Of a DNA stretch of 64,000 nucleotides, positions 4,936-47,134 are shown in pieces; position 1 is the first letter of the stretch; each line of letters opens with the position of its first letter. Source of the stretch: Kofleriaceae bacterium. Its GTDB lineage: Bacteria > Myxococcota_A > Polyangia > Haliangiales > Haliangiaceae. The stretch lies in contig CBDCCZ010000038.1 of assembly GCA_965215005.1 (NCBI GenBank), positions 32,001-96,000 of the forward strand, given 5' to 3'. The position numbers and the translations under genes are program-made. The notes below the pieces were generated by a model. It worked only from the letters and a program-made list of their open reading frames with translations, did no database searches and had not been told where the DNA came from.

Positions 4936-5091
4936 CTAGTGGTTCACGGCGGAAGTCGTGAACCGCTAGAAAAACAACAATCGCTTGGGGAGACGCCGAA
5001 CGGGGCGCCTGAGCAGCAGAAATCTGCCGCCCTTGCCCCGCATCGGGGCGGCGGAATTCTGCGTCATGAATCCCGCGGCGTCGTACTCTAG
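4936..5091 (+). repeat. Structured interspersed repeat (REP/MITE-like), full-length copy A
   Basis: CTAG-bounded 156 bp; 15-bp hairpin CTAGTGGTTCACGGC-GGAA-GTCGTGAACCGCTAG plus a long second hairpin; recurs elsewhere in the window. Confidence 0.9.
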
Positions 5092-8736: not shown

Positions 8737-11187
8737 ATGACGCCGTCGAGTGCGGGTGCCGCGGGACGCCGGCTGGGCCGCTACCACTTGGCGGAGTCGC
8801 TTGGGGGCGGTCCGACGGGCGAGGTGTATCGCGCCAAGGTCTATGGCGTCGCGGGGTTCGAGCGTGAGCTCGCCGTCAAGCGACTGCACGACGAGCTGGT
8901 CGGTGACCCCGACCTCGCGGCCAAGCTGGCGGCCGCGGCGCGCGCGTACGGCAGCCTTGAGCATCCGCGGATCGCGCGACTCCACGAGTATGGCGTTGCC
9001 AACGGCGAGACCTTCACGGCGGTGGAGCTCGTGGAGGGACTCGACGTCGCGCGGCTGCTGCGCGCAACCCATGGCCGCGGTCATGCGCTCGCTCTTGGCG
9101 CTGCCGCCACCATCATTGCGCAGGCGGCGCGCGCTGTCGGCTACGCGCACGGACGCAACATTGCCCACTTTGGGTTGTGCCCGACCAACTTGCTCTGCAC
9201 CCCCGAAGGCGAGGTGAAGGTCACCGACTTTGGCCTGTTGGCGGCGCGACTTCCCGCTCGCCCCGGCGACGACAGCTTACGAGCGCGAATCCAATATCTG
9301 GCGCCCGAGCAGCTGGTCAACGAAGCGGCGTCGGCGGCGACCGACGTGTTCTCGCTGGGTGCGATCGCGTATGAGCTGTTTACCGGCGAGCCGGCGTTCA
9401 CCGGCGACAGTCCGCGCGAAATCGCTCAGCGAATCCTCTCGGGACAACGCGCGATACCGGTGCTGCCCGCGCTGTTGTCGAAGGTCTTGAGGCGATGCTT
9501 AGCACGCTCACCATTCGAACGATTTCCCGATGCGCGAGCCCTGGCGGAGGCGCTCGAAGCGGCGGTGCGTTCGACGCCGCTTGCTGGAGGTCGCGCGGAC
9601 ATTGCGCGAGCGGTCTGCGGTGCGCTCCGCGAGGCGCCAGCGGCGGTAACCGATGCGACAGCTCCACGGGCGAGCATTCCGAGCATTGCCTCCACTTCGC
9701 TGGCGGCGCGCCTGGGGCCGCGGCTGTCCTCGACGGAGCTCGAAGAAGAGCCGACGCGGGTGCAGGAGAGCTCGCCACCCGCAGCTGCGTCGGCGGCTCG
9801 ATTCCAGGACTTCGTCGCGGACCTGCCGCGGCGGCAATCGGTGACCGAGGCGGATACGGCGGTGGGGGAGTCGTCGCTGGCACAGCTCATGGTCGCCTCC
9901 AGCGACCGAGCCGACACCGATCGGTCGGCAAGGGTCGCTAGCGCGGAGCGCTCGGCGAGTGAGCGCGCCGAGACCGACGCGCAGCCAGAAAATGAGCTGG
10001 TCGCAGAATGGTCGGATCGTGGGCGTCCCGCGAGCGACTCGGGCGCGATGGAGCGCGCGGCGACGACGATGCAGCGCGCCGTGCCCGGTGGCGAGGCAGC
10101 CGAGGACGCCACGGACGAGCTCGAATTCGCCGATCTATCGGTGCTGACGCCGCTTCCTGCCGAAGTTCCGCAGGCGCCTTCGATCCCGCTCAGTGCGAAG
10201 CTGCCGTTTGCCTTTTCCGGAAGTGCGGCTGGCCAAGACGGACCAGTCGCCGAGCCTGTCGCGACGAAGCCGTTTGCCTTTAGCGGAGGTGCTGCTGGCC
10301 GAGACGGACCACTTGACGAGCCCGCCGCGCCAGAGCCGTTTGTCTCTGGTGCCGTGGCGGCCACCTCGTCGCGGCCGCCCGACACGATCCCACCGCACGA
10401 TGCGCCGCTTCTCCGCGGTGACGCCGAAGCCACGGCCAGCTCCGATGAGGAGCGGCAAGCTGCACGAGCGGATGCTGCACCAGTGCAGCTTGCGACGGCC
10501 GCCCGTCGGTCCCGTCGCGGCATCGCCGGCGGGGTTGCCGCGTTGCTAGCCGCTGCGCTCGCGGTCGGTTCGCTGGTTCTTTACGATCAGATCGCAGATA
10601 GGCAGCGGCACGTAGCGCCGCCTCCCACGACAGAGACGATAGTCGCATCGAGCCAAGCCGATCGACCTGCGAGCGTTTCGAGCGAGGCATCGGCGCCATC
10701 CGCCAGCCTCGACTCGCCACCGCCGGTGATCGCGTTGCCGCCTAGCGACGAGGAGCAACCAGTTCCGGCCGAGCTGCGCATCGCCACCGAGCCCCCCGGC
10801 GCCAAGGTGTACGTGGATGGTCGCTTGCGCGGCAAAGCGCCGGTCACGCTCGACGCGACCGACGACGAACACTCGCTGGCCATCATCATGCCTGGATACA
10901 AGCTGCACACCTCGCAAATCGATGGCCAAGGTGACCTAACGATCGCGCTCGAGGAGGTCACGCCTCCAGGCGGCCGCGGCGGCATCAAGGTGCGATGTCG
11001 GCACAAGAACCGCTACTACGTATTCGTCGACGGCTACGATATCGGCCAGCTGTGCCCATCCGAGCGCATCGGCGCCGACGTTGGCGCGCACGTCGTCGAG
11101 ATTTACGATCCAGAGACTGAGAGCCGCCGTGAGTTCCACGTCGAGGTCAAGCAAACCCGGCTGAGCTTGCGCGTGCGCGTCGACTAG
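8737..11187 (+). CDS. Ser/Thr kinase-like protein (probable pseudokinase) with TM and PEGA domain
   Basis: LAVK, TDFG and YLAPE are present but the catalytic loop reads AHFGLCPTN; TM helix; TEPPGAKVYVDG PEGA. Confidence 0.85.
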   Translation: MTPSSAGAAGRRLGRYHLAESLGGGPTGEVYRAKVYGVAGFERELAVKRLHDELVGDPDLAAKLAAAARAYGSLEHPRIARLHEYGVANGETFTAVELVEGLDVARLLRATHGRGHALALGAAATIIAQAARAVGYAHGRNIAHFGLCPTNLLCTPEGEVKVTDFGLLAARLPARPGDDSLRARIQYLAPEQLVNEAASAATDVFSLGAIAYELFTGEPAFTGDSPREIAQRILSGQRAIPVLPALLSKVLRRCLARSPFERFPDARALAEALEAAVRSTPLAGGRADIARAVCGALREAPAAVTDATAPRASIPSIASTSLAARLGPRLSSTELEEEPTRVQESSPPAAASAARFQDFVADLPRRQSVTEADTAVGESSLAQLMVASSDRADTDRSARVASAERSASERAETDAQPENELVAEWSDRGRPASDSGAMERAATTMQRAVPGGEAAEDATDELEFADLSVLTPLPAEVPQAPSIPLSAKLPFAFSGSAAGQDGPVAEPVATKPFAFSGGAAGRDGPLDEPAAPEPFVSGAVAATSSRPPDTIPPHDAPLLRGDAEATASSDEERQAARADAAPVQLATAARRSRRGIAGGVAALLAAALAVGSLVLYDQIADRQRHVAPPPTTETIVASSQADRPASVSSEASAPSASLDSPPPVIALPPSDEEQPVPAELRIATEPPGAKVYVDGRLRGKAPVTLDATDDEHSLAIIMPGYKLHTSQIDGQGDLTIALEEVTPPGGRGGIKVRCRHKNRYYVFVDGYDIGQLCPSERIGADVGAHVVEIYDPETESRREFHVEVKQTRLSLRVRVD

Positions 11188-11703
11188 TCCGCCGCCGCGG
11201 GACTTATGACGCAGAAATCCGCCACCCCGATGCGGGGCAAGGGCGGCAGATTTCTGCTGCTCAGGTGCCCCTCTCGGCGTCTCCCCAAGCGATTGTTGCT
11301 TTGCTAGCGGTTTGCCGGCTAACGCCGCAAACCGCTAGACCGACGCCGCGGGACTTATGACGCAGAAATCCGCCACCCCGATGCGGGGCAAGGGCGGCAG
11401 ATTTCTGCTGCTCAGGTGCCCCTCTCGGCGTCTCCCCAAGCGATTGTTGCTTTGCTAGCGGTTTGCCGGCTAACGCCGCAAACCGCTAGACCGACGCCGC
11501 GGGACTTATGACGCAGAAATCCGCCACCCCGATGCGGGGCAAAGGCGGCAGATTTCTGCTGCTCAGGTGCCCCTCTCGGCGTCTCCCCAAGCGATTGTTG
11601 CTTTGCTAGCGGTTTGCCGGCTAACGCCGCAAACCGCTAGACCGACGCCGCGGGACTTATGACGCAGAAATCCGCCACCCCGATGCGGGGCAAGGGCGGC
11701 AGA
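11184..11703 (-). repeat. Tandem array of the structured repeat: three full 151-bp units plus a partial unit
   Basis: GACTTATGAC recurs at 11201, 11352, 11503 and 11654; units are nearly identical; reverse-complement relative of 4936-5091. Confidence 0.97.
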
Positions 11704-11708
11704 GCTGG

Positions 11709-13070
<1,362 letters not shown>

Positions 13071-14975: not shown

Positions 14976-16055
14976 GTGTGGCGCGCACGTGCAATGATCG
15001 TCGTCGTTGGCTGGGTGTGCGGCTGTGGCCAAGAGGCGGCGCTGATGGTCGATGCCTTCGATGCCGGAGCGGCTGTCGATGCAGGCGATGGAGCGGTGCC
15101 CGAGGCCGCGTGCCCGACGAGTCCGCGACCGACTCCGCCCGCGGAGCTGAGATTTTGGCTTACTGGCAACGCTGAGGACGCCTGCGTTTCGCTCGAGAGC
15201 GCCGTTATGGTGCTCATGGGCGGCGGCAACGAGGTCGACCAGGCGTTCGCGCAGGTCCGCTTGCAGGTGGGGCGCGCTGACGTGGTGGTGCTTCGAACCG
15301 ATGCTCGCAGCACCTACAACGACTATCTGGCCGAGTTGTTAGCTGCCGACTCGGTCGAGACGCTGGTGATTGATTCGCGCGACGCTGCGAGCAGCGCCTA
15401 CGTCGAGTGGGTGCTGGCGTCGGCGGAGATGGTGTGGATCGCCGGCGGCGATCAATCGCGCTATCTCGAGCTCTGGCAAGACACGGCGGTGTCCCGGGAG
15501 CTGGCGGCGCTGCATGCGCGCGGTGGGGTCATCGGTGGCACCTCAGCGGGGCTTGCGGTGCTGAGCGAGGTCGTCTACGACCCGGGGGAGGCCGACTCGG
15601 CGACCAGCGCGGAGGCCGCCGCCGATCCATGCCATCGCAACGTGGCCCTTTCGAAGGGCTTCGCGGGGCTGTCGGCGATGCGCGGCGTGGTCGCCGATTC
15701 GCACTTTCGCGAGCGCGATCGGCTCGGGCGGTTGCTGGTGTTCATGGCGAAAGCCGCAGAGATGGTAGAGCCGCGAGGAGTCACTGGCATCGGAGTCGAC
15801 GAGGACACGGCAGTCATCGTCGAGGCGAGCGGGCGAGCGCGCGTGTTTGGCGCCGGTGCGGCGTACGTTCTGCGCGCCGATGCGCAGTCTGCGCTCGGCT
15901 CCCTGCGCTGCGGCCAACCGGTCGACTATCGCGGCGTAGTGCGATATCGGCTACGCGACGGCGATGTTCTCGAGCTGGCCACGGGCGAAGGCTCGGTGTC
16001 GGCGACCCGTGTGGGTCTCGCCGATGGCCGCTACGCGCCGAGCGATCCGTATTAG
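14976..16055 (+). CDS. Cyanophycinase-like serine peptidase (S51), probably exported or a lipoprotein
   Basis: LMGGG, AGGDQ, GGTSAG, DSHFRERDRLGRL, GVDEDTA; hydrophobic N-terminus with Cys; start uncertain. Confidence 0.85.
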   Translation: MWRARAMIVVVGWVCGCGQEAALMVDAFDAGAAVDAGDGAVPEAACPTSPRPTPPAELRFWLTGNAEDACVSLESAVMVLMGGGNEVDQAFAQVRLQVGRADVVVLRTDARSTYNDYLAELLAADSVETLVIDSRDAASSAYVEWVLASAEMVWIAGGDQSRYLELWQDTAVSRELAALHARGGVIGGTSAGLAVLSEVVYDPGEADSATSAEAAADPCHRNVALSKGFAGLSAMRGVVADSHFRERDRLGRLLVFMAKAAEMVEPRGVTGIGVDEDTAVIVEASGRARVFGAGAAYVLRADAQSALGSLRCGQPVDYRGVVRYRLRDGDVLELATGEGSVSATRVGLADGRYAPSDPY

Positions 16056-16204
16056 TGGTTCACGGCGGAAGTCGTGAACCGCTAGAAAGCAACGGTCGAT
16101 GAGGGAGACGCCGAAGGGGGCACGTGAGTAGCAGAAATCTGCCGCCCTTGCCCCGCATCGGGGCGGCGGATTTCTGCGTCATCAATCCCGCGGCGGCGTA
16201 CTAA
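16052..16204 (+). repeat. Structured interspersed repeat, full-length copy
   Basis: TTAGTGGTTCACGGCGGAAGTCGTGAACCGCTAG...GCAGAAATCTGCCGCCCTTGCCCCGCATCGGGGCGGCGG; begins on the TAG stop of the upstream gene. Confidence 0.92.
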
Positions 16205-16218
16205 TGGTGTCGAGCGGC

Positions 16219-24758: not shown

Positions 24759-26978
24759 GTGCCGGTGACTGCTTCCGTGGACACGAATCGTTGCCAACAT
24801 TGTGGGCTCGAGTTTGCCGCGAGCGCGCTGTTTTGTCCGGCGTGCGGCACGGCGAGGTCGCGCGACGAGGGTGGCGATCCGCTGCTGGGGACGGTTCTCG
24901 GCGAGCGATTTCTGCTCGTAGAGCGCCTCGGGCACGGCGCCTCGGGCACCATCTATCGCGCCGAGCACACCACCTTGCGCCGGCGCGTGGCGGTCAAGGT
25001 GCTTCATCACGAGCTGTCTCGCGATGACCTCGCGATGGAGCGCTTCCGCCGCGAAGCCACCACCGTGAGCGATATCGATAACGAGCACATCGTGCAAATT
25101 CACGACTTCGGGCGAGCTGCCGATGGTCGTTTGTATTTGGCGATGGAGCTGCTCGAGGGCGAGACCCTCGATCAGGTGTTGCACCGCGACAAGCGGCTCG
25201 CCATTGCCGACACGGTTGACGTCATCATTCAGCTCGGCGAAGCGCTCATGGAAGCGCACGCGATGGGCTACATCCACCGCGACCTGCGACCGCGCAACAT
25301 CTATCTCGCGATGCGCCGCGGCCGCGCCAACTTCGTCAAGCTGCTCGACTTTGGGCTCGCAAAGTTGGTCGAGAAAGAGGGCGAGGCGGAATCTACCAGC
25401 CTCGGCATGACGTTCGGCGACCCCAAGTACATGTCGCCAGAGCAGGCCCGCGGCGACAACGTCGACCGTCGCGCGGACATTTATTCGCTTGGCTGCATCG
25501 CCTACGAGATGCTGGTTGGGCAGCCGCCATTCGTGGGCGGCAAGGTCTTCGACATCCTCACGCGCCACGTCGATACCGTCCCCGTGGCGCCCATCGAGCG
25601 CCGCGAAGACGTGCCGCCATGGCTCAACGCGACGGTGATGCGCATGCTCGCAAAATCGCCCGGCGAGCGCTTCATCACCGTCTATCGGCTGATCGAGGCG
25701 ATGCGCGAGGGGCAGCAAACGGGTGCGGTCATGGCCGATGAGGTGGCGCGGCGGCGCGAGTCGATTCCGCCGCCGTCGGTGTCGCGGGCGATGGAGCGGC
25801 TTGGCTACGATCCTCAAGACGCCTATCGCGTCGCTCGCGAAGAGATTCGCGATGAGGGCCAGGAATCCGGCTCCGCGGCGCCGGAGACGTTGCCGCCCGA
25901 CGAGCTGGTAATCACCGCGCCCGACGACGATGACGCTCGGCAGACGCTGGCGGTCGCGCCGGTGGTCGCGGAGCAGCGACGGGCGGCGGGCAAGCGCAAG
26001 GCCGACACCGAAGATTCGGGGGTGGGCATCTCGGGGGCATGGTTTGCCGATGGCGAGGTGCGTGGTGGCGAGCGGAGCGGCGCGCTCGAGCAGTCGGAGC
26101 AGGCGCGCCTGGAACGCGCCCGCGCCGCGATATCGCCCGGTGACACGAGCCTCATCGATGACCTCTACTTCGAGCCGCCGCGGGGGCGGCTGCTAAAAGT
26201 CGCAGCTGGCGTGGCGGGGGCCGCGCTCCTAGTGGTGCTGGCGATCGCGCTGTGGCCGAGCGAGCCGGCGAAGCGGGATGTGGTGGCGGCTGCCGAGGAG
26301 CGCGCGGTTCCGGCGACCACCGTCATCGAGCCGCCGTACGGCGATGCGCTGGTGCAGCCCGGCGATGACCTCATGCAAGCCGAGGCGGACATGCCGAACC
26401 TCGAGGAGGATCGCGAGGCGGAGCAAGCGGTGGCGGCTGCCGCTCCGACAGCGCAGCAAGCGCGTGATTCGTCGCGGCCGAAGCGCCGCGACAAACCAGC
26501 GGCGGCGCGTCCTCGGCCCGCGGCTGCAGCGGCGAAAGCCAAGCCTGTTGCCGAGCCGGCCGACGATGACGAGCCCGTCGATGACGAGCCGAAGTCCACA
26601 GGTGATTCCGCAAAAGACGGTGGCAAGCGGGCTGCATTTTTCGCGCAGCTCGGCGCGCAAGCGCTGCGCAGCGGCGACACACTCGGCGCTGCAGGCAACT
26701 TTCAGAAAGCCCAAGAGCTCGATCCGCAAAATGTCGATGCCGCCGCGGGGCTGGGCGAAATCGCCCTTTTGCAGGGCTTTTACGCGGATGCCATCGCGCA
26801 TCTCGATCGCGCGGTAAAGCGTCGTCCGCGGAGTGCACGCTTGCAGACGCTCCTTGGCGAAGCATATCTAGGCAGCGGCAAAACCGCCGCCGCCACCACC
26901 GCCTTTCGTCGCGCACTCGACGCCGAGCCGGGCAACGAGCGCGCCCGGAGCGGACTCGAAGAAGCCACCGGGAGCTAG
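24759..26978 (+). CDS. Ser/Thr kinase with N-terminal Zn ribbon, TM and C-terminal TPR
   Basis: CQHC..CPAC; GHGASG, VAVK, HRDLRPRN, LDFG, YMSPE; TPR-like helices at the C-terminus. Confidence 0.92.
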   Translation: MPVTASVDTNRCQHCGLEFAASALFCPACGTARSRDEGGDPLLGTVLGERFLLVERLGHGASGTIYRAEHTTLRRRVAVKVLHHELSRDDLAMERFRREATTVSDIDNEHIVQIHDFGRAADGRLYLAMELLEGETLDQVLHRDKRLAIADTVDVIIQLGEALMEAHAMGYIHRDLRPRNIYLAMRRGRANFVKLLDFGLAKLVEKEGEAESTSLGMTFGDPKYMSPEQARGDNVDRRADIYSLGCIAYEMLVGQPPFVGGKVFDILTRHVDTVPVAPIERREDVPPWLNATVMRMLAKSPGERFITVYRLIEAMREGQQTGAVMADEVARRRESIPPPSVSRAMERLGYDPQDAYRVAREEIRDEGQESGSAAPETLPPDELVITAPDDDDARQTLAVAPVVAEQRRAAGKRKADTEDSGVGISGAWFADGEVRGGERSGALEQSEQARLERARAAISPGDTSLIDDLYFEPPRGRLLKVAAGVAGAALLVVLAIALWPSEPAKRDVVAAAEERAVPATTVIEPPYGDALVQPGDDLMQAEADMPNLEEDREAEQAVAAAAPTAQQARDSSRPKRRDKPAAARPRPAAAAAKAKPVAEPADDDEPVDDEPKSTGDSAKDGGKRAAFFAQLGAQALRSGDTLGAAGNFQKAQELDPQNVDAAAGLGEIALLQGFYADAIAHLDRAVKRRPRSARLQTLLGEAYLGSGKTAAATTAFRRALDAEPGNERARSGLEEATGS

Positions 26979-27057
26979 CTGGTTCATGGCGGAAGTCGTG
27001 AACCGCTAGCAAAGCAACAATCGCTTGGGGAGACGCCGAAGGGGGCGCGTGAGTAGC
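26975..27057 (+). repeat. Structured interspersed repeat, 3'-truncated copy
   Basis: CTAGCTGGTTCATGGCGGAAGTCGTGAACCGCTAG-CAAAGCAACAATCGCTTGGGGAGACGCCG; starts at the kinase TAG stop. Confidence 0.88.
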
Positions 27058-27164
27058 TCCGCCCGACAAGTGCCTACATGCAGCTGCGGCACCGTTGCAA
27101 AATTCGGCGACAGCGCATTTCTCTGCTACTCTTGGAATCAATGGGTGCTCGCTTCGAGAGTCCG

Positions 27165-27314: not shown

Positions 27315-27322
27315 CTTCTGTC

Positions 27323-27351
27323 AGTGGCTCACGCCGAAGTCGTGAGTCGCT
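27323..27351 (+). repeat. Degenerate solo hairpin of the repeat family
   Basis: AGTGGCTCACGCC-GAA-GTCGTGAGTCGCT. Confidence 0.6.
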
Positions 27352-27378
27352 ACGAACGAATGACGGCCGCGTAACCCG

Positions 27379-46129: not shown

Positions 46130-47086
46130 GTGCGTCTGCTCGTCATTCTCGATCCTCTCGCCAAGCTCGAGCTCGCTGGTGACACCTCGTACGCGTTGAT
46201 GCTCGAAGCGGCGCGCCGCGGCCATGAAATCTGGACCTGCCAGGTTGGCGAGCTGGCGCTCGAGCACGACGATGCCATTGCCGAGGCACGGCTCACTCAC
46301 GTGCGCGCGGGCGATTCGGCCGCGGCTGCGTTCACCGAGGAAGCCACCACGGCCATTCCGCTCGAGTCGTTTGACGCGGTGCTGATGCGCAAAGATCCGC
46401 CGCTCGATGTCGAGTTCCTTCAGGCTACGTGGATCCTCGAGCGGGCACGCGGCAAGACGCTGCTAGTGAATGACCCGCGCGGCCTGCGCGAGCTCAATGA
46501 GCACCTCTCGGTGCTGCATTTCCCTGACCTGATTGCCCCCACCATCGTCACGCGCAGCGCCAAGCGTTTGCGCGCGTTTCTCGATGAGCAAGGCGGCACG
46601 ATCGTCGTCAAGCCAGTCGATGGCTTTGCTGGCTATGGGGTTTTCATCGTTCGTGCGGGTGATGCCAACGTGTCGTCGATCTTCGAGTCCTCGACCCGTG
46701 CGGGACGCATTTGGACCATGGCGCAGCGGTATCTGCCCGAGGCCGCGCTCGGCGACAAGCGCATTCTTTTGGCCGACGGTGAGCCGATTGGTGCGGTTCT
46801 TCGCGTGCCGCCGCAAAACGAGGCGCGGGGCAATTTGCACGTTGGCGGCAAGGCAGTGCGCACCGAGGTCACCGCCGAGGACCTGCGCATCGTGCGCGCC
46901 GTGGCGCCGCTGCTCGCCGAGTATGGCCAGCTGTTCGTCGGACTCGACGTCATCGGCGGCAGGCTCACGGAGATCAACGTTACGTCTCCCACCGGCATTC
47001 GACATATCGAGACGCTGGAAGGTGTGAACGCTGCGGCGCCGGTGATCGACTGCATCGAACGCAAAGCGCGCGAGCTCCGCTCCTAG
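46130..47086 (+). CDS. gshB: Glutathione synthetase
   Basis: AAGGAG RBS + GTG; DTSYALM, MRKDPP, GDKRI, RGNLHVGG, EINVTSPTG. Confidence 0.93.
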   Translation: MRLLVILDPLAKLELAGDTSYALMLEAARRGHEIWTCQVGELALEHDDAIAEARLTHVRAGDSAAAAFTEEATTAIPLESFDAVLMRKDPPLDVEFLQATWILERARGKTLLVNDPRGLRELNEHLSVLHFPDLIAPTIVTRSAKRLRAFLDEQGGTIVVKPVDGFAGYGVFIVRAGDANVSSIFESSTRAGRIWTMAQRYLPEAALGDKRILLADGEPIGAVLRVPPQNEARGNLHVGGKAVRTEVTAEDLRIVRAVAPLLAEYGQLFVGLDVIGGRLTEINVTSPTGIRHIETLEGVNAAAPVIDCIERKARELRS

Positions 47087-47134
47087 GCGATTGTTGTTTT
47101 TCTAGCGGTTCACGACTTCGCCGTGAACCACTAG
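47087..47134 (-). repeat. Structured interspersed repeat, truncated copy (hairpin + A-rich linker)
   Basis: Reverse complement reads CTAGTGGTTCACGGCGAAGTCGTGAACCGCTAGAAAAACAACAATCGC. Confidence 0.9.

What the first reader, a model, noticed from the sequence alone, without database searches (positions are those of the whole stretch)
4936..5091. CTAG-bounded ~155-bp structured repeat family with compensatory base changes and strand polarity
Seen: related sequence at 4936-5091, 11184-11703, 16052-16204, 26975-27057, 27323-27351 and 47087-47134, all intergenic. Module 1 is a 15-bp hairpin with a GGAA (GNRA) loop. Module 2 is a ~90-nt rod closed by GACGCCG (4992-4998)/CGGCGTC (5076-5082), with inner stem GCAGAAATCTGCCGCCC/GGGCGGCGGA(A/T)TTCTGC. 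Variants keep the pairing: TTCAC/GTGAA becomes TTTGC/GCAAA in the array (two compensatory pairs), and T-A becomes C-G at 27323. Most stem mismatches are G.T wobbles in one orientation only. Inference: the structure is selected as single-stranded RNA or DNA, either a non-autonomous element mobilised in trans (REP/REPIN-RAYT, IS200/IS605-like or MITE) or a multicopy structured ncRNA. I cannot assign it to a known family.
Basis: partly seen in the sequence, partly recalled or inferred. Interest (0 to 1): 0.78.

Follow-up and report, generated by a model that had tools for sequence, protein, structure and literature searches.

The report
Folded jumping repeat using IS630 ends
The repeats are copies of a 150-base gene-less mobile element, present at over a hundred places in this genome and with relatives in a few other myxobacteria; it is likely moved by an IS630-type transposase into CTAG sites, and its inner hairpin is kept by paired base changes for a reason that is still untested.

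Summary
The six spots belong to one family with 129 copies at 122 loci in this genome. The unit is 150 bp (148 bp plus TA). Empty paralogous sites lack exactly 150 bp or 50 codons. The ends look like IS630 ends: the left end outscores all ~13,000 background CTAG flanks on a profile of 31 myxobacterial IS630 ends, and the right end matches the resident IS630 end at 16 of 23 bases. That IS630 also sits in CTAG, twice at this element's left end. Related families occur in five other genomes, with 11 of 25 pairs changed on both sides across three genomes. Resident copies show no selection on structure and no orientation bias to host genes. The 'GNRA loop' coincides with the IS630 end motif. No Rfam match and no RAYT link were found. 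Verdict: a new IS630-type MITE family, not an ncRNA. Unexplained: why the two-arm fold survives while the end sequences turn over. This scan reported the same family on three other pieces of this genome; the related families in other genomes were not in the notes I saw.

The parts
4936..5091 (+). Full copy: CTAG, 148-bp element, 2 extra bases, CTAG; lies between divergent genes, upstream of D-Tyr-tRNA deacylase
4939..4964 (+). Left imperfect terminal repeat, with the IS630-type core CGGAAGT at positions 12-18 after the TA
4936..4969 (+). Module 1: 15-bp hairpin (left end plus its inverted copy), loop 4951-4954, closed by a second CTAG
4970..4985 (+). A-rich unpaired linker, similar in all related families
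5016..5062 (+). Inner rod stem with the conserved tip GCCCT...GGG(C/T)GG; 9 of 17 pairs changed on both sides across three genomes
5061..5086 (+). Right imperfect terminal repeat (read inward on the minus strand); in the reference copy it matches the resident IS630 left end at 16 of 23 bases
11184..11714 (-). Head-to-tail array: three 151-bp units (11184-11338, 11335-11489, 11486-11640) sharing single CTAG junctions, plus a right-end fragment (11637-11714); between convergent genes, sharing the kinase stop at 11185-11187
16052..16205 (+). Full copy, TTAG ... CTAA; its left TAG is the stop of a peptidase S51 gene
26975..27058 (+). Left-half fragment; its CTAG overlaps the stop of a kinase-TPR gene
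27321..27353 (+). Degenerate lone left hairpin (weak match)
   Evidence: E 0.006
47082..47134 (-). Left-end fragment (hairpin and linker), ending at the stop of the glutathione synthetase gene

Best explanation
This is a 148-base non-coding mobile repeat with about 130 copies in the genome, which is likely cut out and pasted into the TA of CTAG sites by an IS630-family transposase acting in trans, adding 150 bases per insertion. Shown: copy number, unit length, empty sites, CTAG boundaries, imperfect terminal repeats, their likeness to IS630 ends, and a resident IS630 with the same target. Inferred: that an IS630 transposase does the moving, and that TA rather than all of CTAG is duplicated. 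Because each insertion recreates CTAG, new copies can land beside old ones and form arrays (inferred). Because 150 is a multiple of three and one frame on each strand is open, a few copies stay inside genes (shown). The two-arm fold is likely selected during the move and not afterwards. My preferred guess is that extrusion of the central palindrome, helped by the A-rich linker, brings the two ends of so short an element together for the transposase. That step is untested.
For: Empty sites: the copy at C3:185472-185625 has paralogous flanks on C46 and C40 with 4 bp in its place, net 150 bp. The in-frame copy on C14 has a tandem paralogue lacking exactly 50 residues. Ends in 47 good copies: the inner bases are fixed (left G 45/47, right C 45/47) and the outer bases vary (left C 38/47, right G 32/47), the pattern of TA duplication within a CTAG preference. 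In G087, 2 of 28 copies carry the same non-TA pair at both ends. G000 holds an IS630 (NF033545, E 1e-73), 1523 bp from CTAG to CTAG, in three full copies plus stubs. The element's right end matches its left end 16/23 and its right end 14/23; 8 of 13,012 background flanks reach 16/23, and 7 reach the IS's own end-to-end score of 18/23, which are probably the IS ends themselves. 17 of 22 IS630 loci examined have CTAG at both ends and inverted repeats. A profile of 31 such ends from other genomes scores the left end above every background flank. The IS630 abuts the element's left CTAG at 2 of about 6 sites (p 0.009) and forms a tandem with itself as the element does. IS630-family chemistry, TA insertion with duplication: PMC2170065, passages.
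Against: No long element carrying both of the repeat's own ends exists in the assembly (0 of 42 end pairs longer than 182 bp). The left end matches the resident IS630 only 8-10/23, not significant. No PF13358 hit was found in G016, G103, G006 or G019 (MAGs lose repeats). The ends of the G174 and G006 families do not fit the IS630 profile (p 0.2-0.5), and the locus of G174's one IS630 contains no CTAG. About 15% of terminal TA bases deviate in G000 and mostly do not match between the two ends. At the C14 site the right end equals the empty-site triplet CTC while the left end differs, which fits a carried core as well as a duplication. In the cut-and-paste mechanism described for ISY100 I saw no role for an internal fold, so the compensatory changes need an extra explanation.
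Confidence: 0.8

Rival explanations
1. The element is moved as folded single-stranded DNA by a HUH enzyme (RAYT or IS200/IS605-like) that reads CTAG plus a hairpin, as for REPINs.
For: The left end is a tetranucleotide followed by a hairpin. One strand folds better in 47 of 49 copies with DNA energies. G000 has five RAYT-like genes, three of them within 5 kb of a copy against 18% of random points. Y1 genes occur in 4 of 5 other carrier genomes. Left-only fragments (34) outnumber right-only ones (24).
Against: The one close copy (670 bp from the C3 gene's match) is a late insertion: the same flanking repeat is empty on C46 and C40. None of 26 Y1 loci in four other genomes holds a family copy within about 1.5 kb, apart from one 33-bp hit at E 8e-4. 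G174, which has a young family, has no Y1 hit. No TnpB hit in G000. No bias to GC-skew strand (62:47, p 0.18). The ends match IS630. RAYTs are described with REPs in their immediate vicinity (PMC3116915, passages).
Confidence: 0.08
2. An IS630-related enzyme or another recombinase moves the element through a circle that carries its own TA/CTAG core, so one terminal CTAG comes from the donor and the fold acts in a single-stranded or circular intermediate.
For: Unmatched terminal dinucleotides. The C14 empty site. Head-to-tail arrays with single junctions. Modest G.T polarity in consensus stems.
Against: The internal CTAG decays about as much as the terminal ones, and CTAG is depleted genome-wide (6730 against 10101 GTAC and 21159 CATG), so later mutation can explain the mismatches. 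Matched TG/TG and CA/CA ends in G087. No IS110 hit in G000.
Confidence: 0.07
3. The repeat is a multicopy structured non-coding RNA, or an mRNA element kept for the host's benefit.
For: 96.5% of cells paired and 11 of 25 pairs changed on both sides. GNRA loop in 41 of 49 copies. Conserved linker and rod tip across families.
Against: No Rfam match. Orientation to host genes is even: 37 sense and 31 antisense between tandem genes, 17 and 19 at shared stops. Private changes per site are 0.49 in pairs and 0.57 outside, with G.U 13 and A.C 13. Sites are not conserved between paralogues. Patchy spread: 2 of 61 relatives by DNA search. No promoter- or terminator-like site inside the 4936 copy.
Confidence: 0.05

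Closest known systems
IS630-family insertion sequences (ISY100, IS630) and their MITEs, such as RUP of Streptococcus pneumoniae
   Same: TA at both ends, CTAG preference, imperfect terminal repeats like those of IS630 elements of related hosts, about a hundred intergenic copies. Sources: PMC2170065 passages (the CTAG preference only as a reference title there) and PMC2229807 parts 1-2 of 3.
   Different: GC-rich. The two ends fold locally (hairpin and rod) instead of pairing with each other. Open frames allow in-gene copies. No exact autonomous parent was found.
Caulobacter/Brucella CIR repeats
   Same: Two stem-loop arms joined by a linker, TA at the termini, conserved structure between species (PMC2229807).
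   Different: No sequence relation tested. CIR is about 110 bp, carries a GANTC site and is never inside genes. No transposase link was described for it there.
Bacillus cereus group bcr1
   Same: About 155 bp, mobile, with compensatory changes that keep a cruciform-like fold (PMC3184786, passage).
   Different: bcr1 has 5-bp direct repeats and is shown to be transcribed. Here the duplication is TA/CTAG and no RNA data were available.
Rickettsia palindromic elements (RPE) and ERIC
   Same: Palindromic repeats of similar size that sit in frame inside genes (PMC2229807); here 50 residues are added.
   Different: ERIC effects on mRNA depend on orientation, whereas orientation is even here. Those elements pair 5' with 3' end.
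REP/REPIN with RAYT
   Same: Tetranucleotide plus hairpin at the left end, clusters, RAYT-like genes in the genome.
   Different: No flanking of RAYT genes, not an inverted doublet of one REP, IS630-like ends.

Membership tests
IS630-type MITE | Short, multicopy, no transposase gene | tested here: met
   148 bp; 129 copies at E<1e-5 in 122 loci; no long element with both ends
IS630-type MITE | Mobile: filled and empty versions of one site | tested here: met
   Two filled sites with three empty paralogues, net 150 bp or 50 residues
IS630-type MITE | TA target duplication | tested here: inconclusive
   The fixed-inner, variable-outer pattern and the net 150 bp fit TA duplication. A 4-bp duplication or a carried core is not excluded; about 15% of terminal TA bases deviate.
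IS630-type MITE | Terminal inverted repeats | tested here: met
   Imperfect: 14/26 in G000 (p about 0.005), 16/26 in G016, 19/26 in G087, 16/26 in G174; only 7/26 for the G006 copy tested
IS630-type MITE | Ends resemble those of an IS630 | tested here: met
   Right end 16/23 to the resident IS630; left end tops all background on a 31-end profile. Not met for the G174 and G006 families.
IS630-type MITE | Mobilised by the transposase in trans | not testable with these tools
   Needs a transposition assay
REPIN/RAYT | REP copies flank the RAYT gene | tested here: not met
   1 of 5 genes within 1 kb in G000, and that copy is a secondary insertion; 0 of 26 loci elsewhere
REPIN/RAYT | Inverted doublet of one short REP forming one hairpin | tested here: not met
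   Two different arms plus a linker
IS200/IS605 non-autonomous element or TnpB guide RNA | Cognate TnpA/TnpB element with the same ends; no target duplication | tested here: not met
   No PF07282 hit in G000, which is 92.8% complete; target bases appear at both ends
IS110/IS1111 | Cognate IS110 recombinase in the genome | tested here: not met
   No PF02371 hit in G000; absence from a MAG is not proof
Known structured ncRNA | Rfam match | tested here: not met
Known structured ncRNA | Discrete transcript | not testable with these tools
   No RNA holder listed
Catalogued ISfinder MITE | Match to an ISfinder entry | not testable with these tools
   ISfinder is not available; plasmid searches gave only short matches at E 0.4 or worse

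The most novel reading that the evidence does not exclude
A class-wide superfamily of IS630 parasites in myxobacteria keeps one architecture (CTAG, end hairpin, A-rich linker, rod with a fixed GCCCT tip, CTAG) while swapping its terminal repeats to fit different transposases. The fold is a working part of the transposition step, a cruciform or single-stranded intermediate that lets a 148-bp element be synapsed, rather than a by-product or a host RNA signal. That would make testable why bacterial MITEs keep stem-loops by compensatory change.
Probability: 0.25. Interest if true: 0.65.

Novelty: new member of a known kind. Interest (0 to 1): 0.33.

Why it matters
As a MITE family it is ordinary in kind but useful: it accounts for about 120 loci, for 50-residue in-frame inserts in several genes, and for repeated 'structured RNA' false leads in this genome. 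The part of wider interest is the comparison. The fold is kept between lineages, yet resident copies decay neutrally and lie in either orientation. This points to selection during the move itself, and the family offers natural variants to test it.

Tried and rejected
Rfam at gathering threshold on the window (only a tRNA) and at E<1 on four copies: nothing significant. Plasmid searches with two family members: only short matches at E 0.4 or worse. Viral contigs: 0 matches. The metagenome pattern scan gave 6 loci, none showing the full element on inspection. IS4/IS5-type PF01609, IS110 PF02371 and TnpB PF07282: no hit in G000. RAYT link: rejected. Search for a long parent with both ends in G000: none. 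The model found nothing significant in 58 IS630 and Y1 loci, so the rod is not shown to derive from an IS interior. Sequencing runs: one DNA holder, probably the source, and no RNA holder listed; no empty allele in its contigs (low depth, contigs drop rare variants). Terminator reading: none in the scan. Orientation to genes and to GC skew: no bias. An IHF-like reading of the linker is recalled from memory, fits G174 loosely and G000 poorly, and was not tested. Two modules as independent elements: rejected, since 64 of 129 copies keep both ends in fixed order. Paper searches found no description of this family. The MITE catalogue in the supplements of bioRxiv 10.1101/2024.01.18.576219 could not be seen and may hold some members.

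Full report
Observation. The window is G000:C38:32001-96000 of a 6.2-Mb, 65% GC assembly, 92.8% complete. Its gene content (Ser/Thr kinases, sigma-54 activators), and a titled Nannocystineae record that holds 7 matches to the left-end pattern, suggest a myxobacterium; this is an inference. The plus strand of 4936-5091 folds into a 15-bp hairpin, a linker and a rod (z -7.8; other strand z -4.7). Rfam has nothing.

Copy number and anatomy. A profile search found 166 non-redundant hits, 129 at E<1e-5, in 122 loci including five arrays. Of the 129, 64 keep both ends, 34 only the left, 24 only the right and 7 neither. Among 47 copies over 85% identical to a reference, the distance between terminal tetramers is 150 in 26 and 149 in 10. 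The left tetramer has a fixed last G (45/47) and a variable first base. The right has a fixed first C (45/47) and a variable last base. This reads as TA, a 148-bp element running G to C, then TA, inside a preferred CTAG. Mean pairwise identity of 49 copies is 0.90 and no two are identical, so the spread is not very recent.

Mobility. Searching the flanks of all 129 copies gave two informative sites. At C3 the same flanking repeat on C46 and C40 has four bases where the copy sits, net 150 bp. At C14 a tandem paralogue lacks exactly 50 residues. With my own gene caller (unvalidated), 7 of 122 loci lie inside open frames, and 36 flanking gene stops coincide with a terminal TAG or TAA. One frame on each strand of the unit is open.

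The likely mover. G000 has three full copies and some stubs of a 1523-bp IS630 bounded by CTAG. The repeat's right end matches the IS left end at 16/23 and the IS right end at 14/23, against a background mean of about 6.8. The repeat's left end does not match this IS (8-10/23) but matches the repeat's own right end (13/23, p 0.004). I then collected IS630 loci from other genomes of the class. In 17 of 22 examined, the best TA-to-TA inverted pair had CTAG at both ends, and most carry C-N-G-A-A-G-T at positions 12-18. The repeat's left end has CGGAAGT in that register. A profile of 31 distinct ends, leaving out G000's own IS, scores it above all background flanks; the right end gets p 0.014. The IS630 abuts the repeat's left CTAG on C6 and C21, 2 of about 6 sites, while 2.5% of the genome's CTAGs lie in copies. 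Against this: no parent with the repeat's exact ends, no IS630 hit in four other carrier genomes, and terminal TA deviations that mostly do not match.

Relatives. DNA search found the family in 1 of 60 relatives (G016, 16 matches). A 400-genome class search led to G087 (42 matches, only 40 of 188 candidates scored). A covariance model from 32 chosen copies of these three genomes hit 6 of 151 class genomes. Two of its weak hits proved to be multicopy families of the same build: G174 (13 full matches; only 13 of 86 candidates scored) and G006/G019 (17 and 4 matches). They share CTAG-type ends (degenerate on the left in G006), an end hairpin, an A-rich linker and an invariant GCCCT rod tip, but their terminal sequences differ and do not fit the IS630 profile. 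G119 has two weaker hits, not followed up. G103 has a conventional end-to-end MITE: one of its two end types fits the IS630 profile, and its interior looks unrelated. An end pattern hit only 4 of 400 further phylum genomes, once or twice each. The spread is patchy.

Structure. On the 32-copy alignment 96.5% of cells pair, against 80.4% shuffled and at most 48% slid; 11 of 25 pairs change on both sides, 9 of 17 in the rod. These cells reflect a few lineage-level events, and the two measures that count pairs or types do not exceed the shuffles (165/500 and 156/500), so this is no formal covariation test. The plus strand folds better in 48 of 49 copies as RNA and 47 of 49 as DNA. A strand-neutral count on seven consensus sequences gave 10 G.T and 2 A.C (p 0.04). 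Private mutations show no such bias (13:13 in G000; 41:34 pooled over five families), shared variants show a non-significant one (29:18), and paired sites mutate nearly as often as unpaired ones. Orientation to host genes is even and there is no clear link to GC skew. So the fold is kept between lineages but not defended in resident copies. The loop's G-N-A-A coincides with positions 13-16 of IS630 ends, where the second base varies and AA is conserved; it needs no RNA explanation.

Mechanism. Shown: a mobile 150-bp unit, a CTAG target and IS630-like ends. Inferred: cut-and-paste by an IS630 transposase in trans with TA duplication, as shown for ISY100 (PMC2170065, passages); arrays by re-insertion at the recreated CTAG; survival mostly at stop codons and between genes because insertions in genes are purged unless in frame. 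Most speculative: the fold helps the move, for instance by cruciform extrusion that shortens a 148-bp element for synapsis. Palindrome self-correction during replication (general knowledge, not from a call) could also produce paired changes without selection.

Rivals. RAYT: five RAYT-like genes exist and three lie within 5 kb of a copy, but the nearest copy is a secondary insertion, and 26 Y1 loci elsewhere hold no copies. A carried core or circle remains possible from the C14 site. An ncRNA has no support beyond the fold, and no RNA run was available.

Known systems. Closest are RUP and other TA-flanked MITEs, the two-armed CIR repeats and in-frame RPE (PMC2229807, parts 1-2 of 3 read), and bcr1 with compensatory changes (PMC3184786, passages). 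REPIN criteria are from PMC3116915 (passages). PMC3372372 and bioRxiv 10.1101/2024.01.18.576219 (passages) did not mention such a family in the passages seen; the preprint's supplements were not seen. Eight paper searches found no description. Three earlier notes of this scan called the same G000 family an IS630-type or TA-flanked MITE. They steered me to IS630, which I then tested; they are not counted as evidence.

Verdict. A real feature and a new member of a known kind, interest 0.33. The open and more interesting point is the conserved fold across families whose ends differ.

Noticed in passing
G000:C14:184019-185541 (L045); also C6, C21: The IS630 carries a small passenger gene on the opposite strand, 86 aa, with a weak match to the LexA DNA-binding domain. 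Among the three near-identical copies only C14 shows no single-base indel in the transposase gene.
   Followed up: partly
L001-L005 (G000 C25, C3, C17, C4, C46): Five RAYT-like HUH genes 79-91% identical to each other, with fragments elsewhere and shared flanking repeats. A multicopy RAYT-like element is unlike the single-copy RAYTs described in PMC3116915.
   Followed up: partly
L139, L205-L227 (G103): One interior sequence occurs with two different pairs of CTAG-bounded terminal repeats (4 copies and many more), a direct sign of end swapping in a MITE.
   Followed up: partly
L124 (G685) and L128 (G731): Further short CTAG-bounded sequences with the same type of terminal motif in other classes of the phylum.
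   Followed up: no
L041/L042 at 2501; L038 at 2501-2525: The left-hairpin pattern also occurs between apparent cas genes and a CRISPR-like array, and next to an apparent tRNA end and integrase-like gene; these labels are by eye and recalled.
   Followed up: no
L121:590-560 (G087): A left-end fragment of the G087 family lies about 240 bp beyond a partial IS630 gene.
   Followed up: no
G000:C14:124872-131493: Tandem pair of kinase-like paralogues, 64% identical, one with the 50-residue insert; a natural pair for testing the effect of the insert.
   Followed up: partly
window:23950-24023 +: A tRNA gene.
   Followed up: no
G000 whole genome: CTAG is depleted (6730) relative to GTAC (10101), CATG (21159) and GATC (34449).
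   Followed up: no
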